DNA of 64,000 bases from Escherichia phage vB_EcoM_SA20RB, in sequence record OL960581; one strand, written 5' to 3'. Both the position numbers and the translations under genes were made by a program. Under the pieces are notes generated by a model that was given only the letters and a program-made list of their open reading frames with translations, had not been told where the DNA came from and searched no databases. Position 1 is the first letter of the stretch. Each line of letters begins with the position of its first letter. Below, piece by piece: positions 6,522 through 6,977 of the stretch.

Positions 6522-6977
6522 TTATTTTAAATCATCTGCCCAATCAAGTTTAAGAGGCTCTTTATATTCACGATCTAATACGACCGGAATTTGTACATCA
6601 CCGCTAAATGATAAGGGCCCAACATTATAAGACAATGTTATATGCGGTGTGTAATCATCAAAATCATGTGTAGCACCTAGTGCCCGCGCATACATGTGTC
6701 GACAGCGCAGATATTCAGAATCTAGCACAAGTACAAGAGTCGATCCATCTTGTGTTTTCCATACTTCTAAATGTCCAGAAGAAGCTACTTCAAAACTTCC
6801 GCTTGATGGAACATACGGAACATTTACTCTTGAATAACATATGGTCGAATGAATTTTTTCTCTAGGAACTGGATTAGGAACACGTAAAGAGCGCTGGAGT
6901 TCTTCCAGCGCATCAAGTGTTAATTCTGAAAACTTAGCTGCTACATAAAGACCCGTTGAAAAGTCTTTAAATTCCAT
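6522..6977 (-). CDS. 57B: 57B-position protein (151 aa), 2H-phosphoesterase-like
   Basis: Two H-x-T/S-x motifs (HSTI, HITL) about 85 residues apart. Confidence 0.7.

What the first reader, a model, noticed from the sequence alone, without database searches (positions are those of the whole stretch)
6522..6977. 57B is a 2H-phosphoesterase-like protein next to the tRNA operon
The 151-aa protein has two H-x-T/S-x motifs (HSTI near residue 43, HITL near residue 128), the hallmark of the 2H phosphoesterase superfamily (LigT-type 2'-5' RNA ligases, cyclic phosphodiesterases). With rnlB (RNA ligase 2) and a private tRNA set in the same window, this suggests an RNA end-healing or 2',3'-cyclic phosphate / 2'-5' oligoadenylate-processing role, possibly countering host tRNA nucleases or cyclic-oligonucleotide signalling.
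Basis: inference. Interest (0 to 1): 0.45.

Follow-up and report, generated by a model that had tools for sequence, protein, structure and literature searches.

The report
Known phage anti-CBASS nuclease Acb1
This gene is the already characterised T4 gene 57B (Acb1), a small enzyme that phages use to destroy the cyclic nucleotide alarm signals of the bacterial CBASS immune system, so the finding is correct about the fold but ordinary.

Summary
The ORF at 6522-6977 (minus strand, 151 aa) is real. It is 100% identical to residues 2-152 of phage T4 gp57B, which Hobbs et al. (Nature 2022, PMC9117128) renamed anti-CBASS protein 1 (Acb1). It matches Pfam PF23474 "Acb1" at E=2.6e-60. It matches the crystal structure of Erwinia phage FBB1 Acb1 (7T26/7T27) at E=4e-62, and the predicted model superposes on 7T26 with TM 0.88/0.96 and rmsd 0.8 Å. 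The two H-x-T motifs are the published catalytic tetrad. Both histidines are invariant in a 27-sequence alignment reaching down to 28% identity. The 2H-phosphoesterase call is therefore right. The RNA end-healing and tRNA-repair ideas have no support. The tRNA genes lie four genes away, rnlB lies 33 kb away, and T4 lacking acb1 grows normally unless CBASS is present. Many database records still label the gene "RNA ligase", which is a misnomer. Verdict: already known, low interest.

The parts
6522..6977 (-). acb1 (T4 gene 57B) coding sequence, 151 aa plus stop
   Evidence: ORF list. Pfam PF23474 Acb1, 202.7 bits, E=2.6e-60, covering profile positions 1-144 of 144. 100% identical to T4 NP_049750.1 residues 2-152. 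tblastn finds it in 1470 phage records.
6840..6851 (-). First catalytic motif H43-S44-T45-I46 (T4 numbering H44/T46)
   Evidence: Position computed. H43 is invariant and T45 at least 90% conserved in alignment A1. H44/T46 form part of the catalytic tetrad in the FBB1 Acb1-cGAMP structure, and H44A inactivates the enzyme.
6633..6644 (-). Second catalytic motif H112-I113-T114-L115 (T4 numbering H113/T115)
   Evidence: Position computed. P111, H112, T114 and L115 are invariant in A1. H113/T115 belong to the catalytic tetrad, and H44A/H113A is catalytically dead.
6525..6548 (-). C-terminal lid, residues 144-151 (T4 145-152), including W146 (T4 W147), which stacks on the nucleobase
   Evidence: The sequence is identical to T4. 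The paper states that residues 145-152 form an ordered lid over the bound 3'3'-cGAMP. T4 Acb1 lacking residues 145-152 is inactive in the Panoptes activation assay. pLDDT drops to 70 and then 47 over residues 141-151, which fits a flexible lid.
6975..6979 (-). TAATG junction: the stop codon of 57A overlaps the start codon of acb1 by one base, suggesting co-transcription and translational coupling
   Evidence: Read directly from the sequence and the ORF coordinates. T4 has ATGATGG here, giving a 4-nt overlap and one extra N-terminal Met. Coupling is an inference.
7575..7582 (-). TATAAATA, the T4 late-promoter core motif, on the coding strand inside gene 1 about 600 nt upstream of acb1. It is a candidate late promoter for 57A-acb1 (inferred only).
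   Evidence: The motif search gives 24 copies in the window against 9.8 expected. This fits published Acb1 activity starting about 15 min after infection and middle/late expression. It was not tested here.
6162..6449 (-). ipI (internal protein I), the gene immediately downstream, 100% identical to T4 IPI. It is context rather than part of the enzyme: with acb1 it forms a small anti-defence gene pair.
   Evidence: tblastn with T4 IPI gives 100% identity over 95 aa. Hobbs et al. note that acb1 lies next to ipI, the inhibitor of the GmrS/GmrD restriction enzyme.

Best explanation
The gene is acb1 (T4 gene 57B) of a T4-like Tequatrovirus. Its product is a small, metal-independent 2H-fold phosphodiesterase.

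Mechanism, as published:
- The enzyme binds cyclic di- and trinucleotide immune signals in a U-shaped pocket, held by aromatic stacking residues (Y11, W73, F106 and W146 here).
- It closes a C-terminal lid over the ligand.
- It contorts the ligand so that the adenosine 2'-OH attacks the 3'-5' phosphodiester positioned over the H43/T45/H112/T114 tetrad.
- Cleavage occurs 3' of adenosine through a 2',3'-cyclic phosphate intermediate and yields a linear 3'-phosphate product.

Destroying 3'3'-cGAMP, cUA, cAAA, cAAG and related signals keeps CBASS effectors from being activated, so the phage escapes abortive infection. The enzyme does not cleave c-di-GMP or the 2'-5' bond of 3'2'-cGAMP.

What is shown and what is inferred:
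- Shown here: sequence identity to T4 Acb1, family membership, conserved catalytic and binding residues, the predicted fold, and the conserved gene order.
- Shown in the literature for the identical protein: the enzymology, the structural mechanism and the phage genetics.
- Inferred: that the protein does the same job in this particular phage, and that it is expressed from a middle or late transcript together with 57A.
For: - Pfam Acb1 PF23474, E=2.6e-60, full-length profile match.
- phmmer against PDB: FBB1 Acb1 7T26/7T27 at E=4.1e-62.
- 151/151 identity to T4 gp57B residues 2-152.
- AF2 model with pLDDT 89.4 and pTM 0.82. Foldseek against 7T26 gives TM 0.88/0.96, rmsd 0.8 Å over 136 columns.
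- H43, H112, T114 and P111 are invariant and T45 is nearly invariant across 27 homologues of 28-100% identity.
- The residues the paper names for base stacking and catalysis are all present at T4 number minus 1.
- The gene order gene 1 - 57A - 57B - ipI - trna.4 matches T4.
[quoted passage not shown] T4 lacking acb1 has a more than 300-fold defect on CBASS hosts and no defect without CBASS.
- Transposon sequencing shows 57B is dispensable on K-12 but depleted on a CBASS host.
- Expression is middle/late.
- Acb1 is broadly promiscuous and triggers the Panoptes guard systems by degrading 2'3'-c-di-AMP or cA3.
Against: Nothing found here contradicts it.

Caveats:
- No experiment was done on this phage.
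- The host and its CBASS status are unknown.
- The protein lacks the extra N-terminal Met of the T4 annotation, because the upstream ATG is ATA here. That residue lies outside the crystallised core (G8-D152) and is unlikely to matter.
- Promoter assignment rests on a motif only. The sigma-70 scan was not above shuffles: 15 sites found against 17.8 expected.
Confidence: 0.97

Rival explanations
1. RNA end-healing or 2'-5' RNA ligase (LigT-like) enzyme that works with the phage tRNA set and Rnl2 to repair tRNAs cut by host anticodon nucleases.
For: - The fold is shared with E. coli LigT and Thermus TT0787 (Foldseek E of 2.5e-4 to 5e-4).
- PHROG 755 and RefSeq label the gene 'RNA ligase'.
- The Acb1 reaction passes through and resolves a 2',3'-cyclic phosphate, so the chemistry needed for end healing exists.
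- The tRNA cluster lies 1.4 kb away.
Against: - The Pfam 2'-5' RNA ligase family scores 13 bits against a cut-off of 27, E=0.11, over only 43 residues.
- LigT structures align at TM 0.44-0.60 and 13-16% identity, which is superfamily-level similarity only.
- rnlB is 33 kb away, and four unrelated genes separate acb1 from the tRNAs.
- T4 lacking acb1 replicates normally without CBASS, and 57B is non-essential on K-12.
- From established knowledge, T4 tRNA repair against PrrC uses Pnkp and Rnl1, which already supply the end-healing activities.
- The 'RNA ligase' label is an inherited homology name, not an assay result.
Confidence: 0.02
2. The enzyme is Acb1, but its main selective target in nature is not CBASS. 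The target would be other cyclic-oligoadenylate signalling, such as type III CRISPR cA3, or host housekeeping nucleotide messengers.
For: [quoted passage not shown]
- A 2025 preprint places T4 Acb1 among the most promiscuous viral 2H phosphodiesterases, active on CD-NTase, CRISPR and cellular messengers.
- Phages carrying acb1 are restricted by cA3-based type II Panoptes.
Against: - The only loss-of-function phenotypes published for acb1 as a counter-defence are on CBASS hosts.
- Type III CRISPR is uncommon in the Escherichia and Shigella hosts of the closest relatives (own knowledge, not tested here).
- This reading extends the main explanation rather than replacing it.
Confidence: 0.1
3. Chance ORF or decayed gene with fortuitous H-x-T/S motifs.
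For: Two H-x-[ST] motifs arise in 16% of shuffles of this protein.
Against: - The ORF is intact, full-length and identical to the active T4 enzyme.
- It occurs in 1470 phage records, 1361 of them covering at least 80% of the query.
- The Pfam E-value is 2.6e-60.
- The catalytic residues are invariant.
Confidence: 0.005

Closest known systems
Phage T4 Acb1 (gene 57B, NP_049750.1; Hobbs et al. 2022, PMC9117128)
   Same: Identical over all 151 residues. Same neighbours: gene 1, 57A, ipI and trna.4. Same catalytic tetrad, aromatic stacking residues and C-terminal lid.
   Different: It lacks the first Met of the T4 annotation. A G-to-A change turns T4's ATGATGG into ATAATGG, so 57A ends in TAA instead of TGA and the overlap is 1 nt instead of 4 nt. 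Residue numbers are therefore the T4 number minus 1. The surrounding genome is about 96% identical to T4 at the nucleotide level, so this is a relative and not T4 itself.
Erwinia phage FBB1 Acb1 (PDB 7T26 apo, 7T27 with 3'3'-cGAMP)
   Same: 66-68% identical. The model superposes at rmsd 0.8-1.1 Å, TM up to 0.96. Same HxT/HxT tetrad and C-terminal lid.
   Different: A different phage genus and host. One-residue indel after the W73 strand. F instead of W at the position equivalent to W73.
Burkholderia phage BCSR5 phosphodiesterase, '2H PDE-9' (PDB 9Q2G/9Q2Y)
   Same: Deposited as 'Anti-CBASS protein Acb1'. Same 2H core and two catalytic His. Degrades 3'3'-cGAMP.
   Different: Only about 20% identical, TM about 0.66-0.71. 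Its lid is N-terminal rather than C-terminal. It is poor at cleaving 2'3'-c-di-AMP and so does not trigger Panoptes, whereas T4 Acb1 does.
LigT / 2'-5' RNA ligase and cyclic phosphodiesterase members of the 2H superfamily (E. coli LigT 5LDI, Thermus TT0787 1IUH, Usb1, Arabidopsis CPDase)
   Same: Two H-x-T/S motifs on a pseudo-symmetric beta-sheet core. Metal-independent transesterification chemistry involving 2',3'-cyclic phosphates (for Acb1 chemistry).
   Different: 13-17% identity and TM 0.44-0.60. Acb1 is smaller (151 aa against about 170-190). It falls below the Pfam family threshold. Its substrates are cyclic oligonucleotide immune signals, not RNA ends. It has a mobile C-terminal lid.
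Eukaryotic-virus 2H phosphodiesterases (coronavirus ns2, rotavirus VP3 C-terminal domain, avian poxvirus cGAMP PDE 9BKQ)
   Same: Viral 2H enzymes that destroy host oligonucleotide immune messengers. They are a functional analogue of Acb1.
   Different: Structural similarity is weak here (Foldseek E 0.04-0.3, TM 0.34-0.46). ns2 and VP3 cleave 2'-5' oligoadenylate, whereas Acb1 cannot cleave the 2'-5' bond of 3'2'-cGAMP.

Membership tests
Acb1 (Pfam PF23474, anti-CBASS protein 1) | Sequence scores above the curated family threshold over the whole domain | tested here: met
   202.7 bits against a cut-off of 27, E=2.6e-60, profile positions 1-144 of 144. All but one of the 78 homologues found (the 99-aa fragment P0072) carry PF23474.
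Acb1 (Pfam PF23474, anti-CBASS protein 1) | HxT/HxT catalytic tetrad (T4 H44, T46, H113, T115) | tested here: met
   H43, T45, H112 and T114 are present. H43, H112 and T114 are invariant and T45 is at least 90% conserved in A1. The tetrad is defined in PMC9117128.
Acb1 (Pfam PF23474, anti-CBASS protein 1) | Aromatic residues that stack on the nucleobases (T4 Y12, W74, F107, W147) | tested here: met
   Y11, W73, F106 and W146 are present. Y11 is at least 90% conserved.
Acb1 (Pfam PF23474, anti-CBASS protein 1) | Compact 2H fold with a mobile C-terminal lid (T4 residues 145-152) | tested here: met
   AF2 model pLDDT 89.4. TM 0.88/0.96 and rmsd 0.8 Å to 7T26. The lid sequence is identical to T4. 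Low pLDDT at the C-terminus fits the flexibility.
Acb1 (Pfam PF23474, anti-CBASS protein 1) | Hydrolysis of adenosine-containing cyclic di- and trinucleotides (3'3'-cGAMP, cUA, cAAA) and rescue of the phage from CBASS | not testable with these tools
   Shown experimentally for the identical T4 protein and nine homologues.
Acb1 (Pfam PF23474, anti-CBASS protein 1) | Tevenvirinae gene context: downstream of 57A and upstream of ipI | tested here: met
   Same order as T4 and phage Aplg8.
2H phosphoesterase superfamily | Two H-x-T/S motifs carried on a duplicated beta-sheet core | tested here: met
   Exactly two motifs. Foldseek recovers LigT, TT0787, Usb1, AKAP18, CPDase, ns2 and VP3 after the Acb1 structures.
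LigT / 2'-5' RNA ligase family (Pfam PF13563 and relatives) | Sequence scores above the family threshold | tested here: not met
   PF13563 scores 13 bits against a cut-off of 27, E=0.11, over residues 80-122 only. No other 2H Pfam family was reported. There is no NCBIfam hit.
LigT / 2'-5' RNA ligase family (Pfam PF13563 and relatives) | 2'-5' RNA ligation or 2',3'-cyclic phosphodiesterase activity on RNA ends | not tested
   None of the papers read here reports such an assay for Acb1. The 'RNA ligase' label in PHROG and RefSeq is a homology-derived name.
Viral 2'-5' oligoadenylate phosphodiesterases (ns2 / VP3 / AKAP7-like) | Close structural similarity and 2'-5' bond cleavage | tested here: not met
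   Foldseek E 0.036-0.25, TM 0.41-0.46. Acb1 is reported unable to cleave the 2'-5' linkage of 3'2'-cGAMP.

The most novel reading that the evidence does not exclude
Acb1 resolves a 2',3'-cyclic phosphate intermediate and is among the most promiscuous viral 2H phosphodiesterases. It might therefore have a second, unrecognised physiological role on RNA ends, for example trimming or healing 2',3'>p termini of phage tRNA precursors or of nuclease-cut tRNAs. That would give real meaning to its conserved position near the tRNA cluster. Nothing found here supports this. It is simply not excluded, because no RNA-end assay appears in the papers read here.
Probability: 0.03. Interest if true: 0.5.

Novelty: already known. 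Interest (0 to 1): 0.08.

Why it matters
For discovery purposes it does not matter. The gene, its structure, its mechanism and its biological role were published in 2022 and have been followed up repeatedly: Panoptes guard systems that sense Acb1 activity, transposon-sequencing confirmation, and surveys of viral 2H phosphodiesterases.

The practical value is in annotation. The window comes from a T4-like phage that carries an intact, wild-type anti-CBASS nuclease. From the published work this predicts resistance to many CBASS types that use adenosine-containing 3'-5' signals, and sensitivity to Panoptes-type guard systems. It also shows that the "RNA ligase" label still attached to this gene in RefSeq and PHROG-derived annotations should be replaced by "anti-CBASS protein Acb1 (2H phosphodiesterase)".

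Tried and rejected
- The two-motif observation as evidence on its own. Shuffling shows two or more H-x-[ST] in 16% of permutations, so it was set aside as standalone evidence. Conservation and structure carry the argument instead.
- LigT / 2'-5' RNA ligase membership. Pfam PF13563 scores below threshold and there is no NCBIfam model. Rejected as a family assignment and kept only at superfamily level.
- A functional link to the tRNA operon or rnlB. Distances of 1.39 kb with four intervening genes, and 33 kb, together with literature showing no phenotype without CBASS. Rejected.
- A sigma-70 promoter or terminator scan around the gene. Counts were not above shuffles: 15 against 17.8 for promoters and 2 against 2.1 for terminators. 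Uninformative.
- The late-promoter motif TATAAATA is enriched across the window, and one copy lies upstream in gene 1. This is only suggestive.
- An Rfam scan of 1-12000 found only the eight tRNAs and nothing overlapping acb1.
- The antisense ORFs inside the gene (6680-6865 and 6694-6837, plus strand) have no supporting evidence and were not pursued.
- Exact source phage. No record in the phage collection matches the window end to end. The best hits reach 96-98% identity over the first 25 kb.

Full report
**Observation.** The window carries an ORF of 151 codons plus a stop at 6522..6977 on the minus strand (DNA read). Its translation contains exactly two H-x-[ST] motifs. HSTI lies at residues 43-46 (window 6840-6851). 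The motif pair is weak evidence by itself, because 16% of random shuffles of this protein carry two or more such motifs.

**What it is.**
- A Pfam scan gives a full-length match to PF23474 "Anti-CBASS protein Acb1": 202.7 bits against a gathering cut-off of 27, E=2.6e-60, profile positions 1-144 of 144.
- The only other Pfam hit is a sub-threshold one to the 2'-5' RNA ligase superfamily family PF13563 (13 bits, E=0.11).
- PHROGs places the protein in phrog_755, labelled "RNA ligase". NCBIfam has no model for it.
- Against PDB sequences the best match is Acb1 of Erwinia phage FBB1 (7T26/7T27, E=4.1e-62). Next comes a 165-aa "Anti-CBASS protein Acb1" (9Q2G/9Q2Y, E=0.004-0.03).
- BLASTP against the T4 gene 57B product (NP_049750.1, taken from NC_000866.4) gives 151/151 identities to T4 residues 2-152.
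- The one-residue length difference has a simple cause. T4 reads ...GAA GAA TGA with ATG ATG GAA TTT in the other frame. The window reads ...GAA GAA TAA with (ATA) ATG GAA TTT. A single G-to-A change removes the upstream ATG and turns the 57A stop from TGA into TAA. Residue numbers here are therefore the T4 number minus 1.

**Source and context.** The surrounding DNA is a T4-like Tequatrovirus.
- A 2-kb query hits 813 phage records, the best at 99% identity (Shigella phage Sf22, Enterobacteria phage Aplg8).
- The first 25 kb is 96-98% identical to many Tequatrovirus genomes, and none matches it end to end.
- Against T4 itself the local region is about 96% identical at the nucleotide level. The gene order is the T4 order: gene 4, 2, 3, 1, 57A, 57B, ipI, trna.4, trna.3, trna.2, the tRNA cluster with segB, then e.8.
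- Eight tRNA genes lie at 3772-5130 on the same strand.
- The nearest tRNA is 1.39 kb from 57B, and four protein genes lie in between.
- rnlB is in the window at 39906-40907 (98.8% identical to T4 Rnl2), which is 33 kb away.
- The gene immediately downstream is ipI, 100% identical to T4 IPI. Hobbs et al. point to this adjacency as a small anti-defence cluster, because IPI inhibits the GmrS/GmrD restriction enzyme.

**Family conservation and fold.**
- tblastn finds the protein in 1470 phage records. These are mostly phages of Escherichia, Klebsiella, Shigella, Acinetobacter, Vibrio, Enterobacter and Aeromonas, and 1361 of them cover at least 80% of the query.
- The large protein database returns 78 cluster representatives, and all but one (a 99-aa fragment, P0072) carry PF23474.
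- In an alignment of 27 sequences spanning 28-100% identity, the invariant columns are H43, S49, L81, V82, P111, H112, T114 and L115. T45, G9, Y11, R93, D105, Y109, I113, Y117, E137 and L142 are at least 90% conserved.
- An AlphaFold2 model built on that alignment has mean pLDDT 89.4 and pTM 0.82. Confidence falls only at the first five residues and over the C-terminal 141-151.
- Foldseek against the PDB puts FBB1 Acb1 first (7T26: TM 0.88/0.96, rmsd 0.8 Å, 68% identity; 7T27 likewise). The Burkholderia phage BCSR5 phosphodiesterase comes next (9Q2Y/9Q2G, TM about 0.66-0.71, about 20% identity).
- Classical 2H enzymes follow at superfamily distance: E. coli LigT, Thermus TT0787, Pyrococcus 1VDX, human Usb1, MHV ns2, AKAP18, Arabidopsis cyclic phosphodiesterase and rotavirus VP3.
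- The 2H-phosphoesterase fold call is correct.

**How it works (from the literature, for the identical protein).** Hobbs et al. 2022 (PMC9117128) purified the 3'3'-cGAMP-degrading activity from T4-infected cells and traced it to gene 57B, which they renamed Acb1.
[quoted passage not shown] Nine further homologues behaved the same way.
- The FBB1 structures show a compact 2H fold with a U-shaped pocket.
- Residues 145-152 form a lid that closes over the ligand.
- Aromatic residues Y12, W74, F107 and W147 stack on the bases.
- The enzyme strains the ligand so that the adenosine 2'-OH attacks the 3'-5' bond over the H44/T46/H113/T115 tetrad.
- Cleavage is metal-independent, occurs 3' of adenosine, and passes through a cyclic phosphate intermediate to a linear 3'-phosphate product.
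- All eight named residues are present here at position minus 1.
- Functionally, Acb1 blocks activation of the CBASS effectors Cap5, Cap4 and CapV in vitro.
- Expression of Acb1 rescues phage P1 from a type III CBASS operon.
- T4 lacking acb1 grows normally without CBASS but shows a more than 300-fold defect with it.
- Acb1 cannot cleave the 2'-5' bond of 3'2'-cGAMP.
- Activity appears about 15 min into infection.

**Later work agrees.**
- Transposon sequencing finds 57B/acb1 dispensable on K-12 but depleted on a CBASS host.
- Transcriptome compilations place it in the middle/late class.
- Acb1 is among the most promiscuous viral 2H phosphodiesterases.
- Acb1 triggers the Panoptes guard systems by degrading their decoy messengers 2'3'-c-di-AMP or cA3.
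- Phage escapers from these systems mutate acb1.

**Expression signals in the window.** These are only suggestive.
- The acb1 start codon overlaps the 57A stop (TAATG, 6975-6979), so co-transcription and translational coupling are likely.
- A T4 late-promoter core TATAAATA lies on the coding strand at 7575-7582, inside gene 1. The motif is enriched across the window: 24 copies against 9.8 expected.
- The generic sigma-70 and terminator scans were no better than shuffles.

The fold assignment is right. Of the proposed functions, only the last-mentioned one (countering cyclic-oligonucleotide signalling) is what the enzyme has been shown to do. The RNA end-healing, tRNA-nuclease and 2'-5' oligoadenylate ideas lack support for these reasons:
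- Membership of the LigT-type family fails on score.
- The linkage to the tRNA genes and to rnlB is loose.
- The deletion mutant has no phenotype without CBASS.
- Acb1 does not cut a 2'-5' bond.
- From established knowledge, T4's tRNA repair route against the PrrC anticodon nuclease uses Pnkp and Rnl1.

A residual possibility that Acb1 also acts on RNA 2',3'>p ends is not excluded, because no such assay appears in the papers read here. I put it at about 3%.

**Verdict.** This is acb1 (T4 57B), an already known and structurally and genetically characterised anti-CBASS 2H phosphodiesterase. Here it is in wild-type form in a T4 relative. Novelty: already known. Interest: low. The one useful by-product concerns annotation: RefSeq T4 and many Tequatrovirus records, and PHROG 755, still call the protein "RNA ligase", which is a misleading homology-derived name.

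Noticed in passing
window 6522-6977 (-); L002 3953-4411; L001 6523-6978: RefSeq T4 (NC_000866.4), phage Aplg8 and many other Tequatrovirus records, and PHROG 755, label 57B/Acb1 as 'RNA ligase'. Only a few records say 'anti-CBASS protein Acb1'. NCBIfam has no model for it. This is a widespread misannotation.
   Followed up: partly
window 5521-5913 (-): The trna.3 homologue is only 56% identical to T4 Trna.3, while the flanking trna.4, ipI, e.8 and gp3 are 100% identical and trna.2 is 95% identical. This is a sharply divergent gene of unknown function just downstream of the ipI-acb1 anti-defence pair, and possibly another host-interaction gene.
   Followed up: no
window 3855-4517 (-): A homologue of the GIY-YIG homing endonuclease SegB (83% identical to T4 SegB) sits between tRNA-Arg (3772-3848) and the CAU-anticodon tRNA (4559-4630), as in T4. 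Phage Aplg8, a close relative in the 57B region, instead has extra tRNAs (His, Asn, Tyr) there.
   Followed up: partly
window 4559-4630 (-): ARAGORN calls this CAU-anticodon gene tRNA-Met. The gene at the same place in T4 is annotated tRNA-Ile. The likely reason is that a modified CAU anticodon reads Ile. That reason comes from my own knowledge and was not tested here.
   Followed up: no
whole window; e.g. 7575-7582 (-), 9907-9914 (+), 9922-9929 (-): The T4 late-promoter core TATAAATA occurs 24 times against 9.8 expected from shuffles, and none of 100 shuffles reached 24. Copies face both ways in the gene 4 / gene 53 divergent intergenic region.
   Followed up: no
window 6975-6979 (-) vs L002 4405-4415: A single G-to-A difference from T4 changes the 57A stop from TGA to TAA and also removes T4's annotated upstream ATG of 57B. 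The second ATG (MEFKDF...) is therefore sufficient, and it may be the true start in T4 as well.
   Followed up: partly
window 7219-7932 (-): The dNMP kinase (gene 1) ORF is 237 aa here against 241 aa in T4, at 96% identity. The cause of the length difference was not examined.
   Followed up: no
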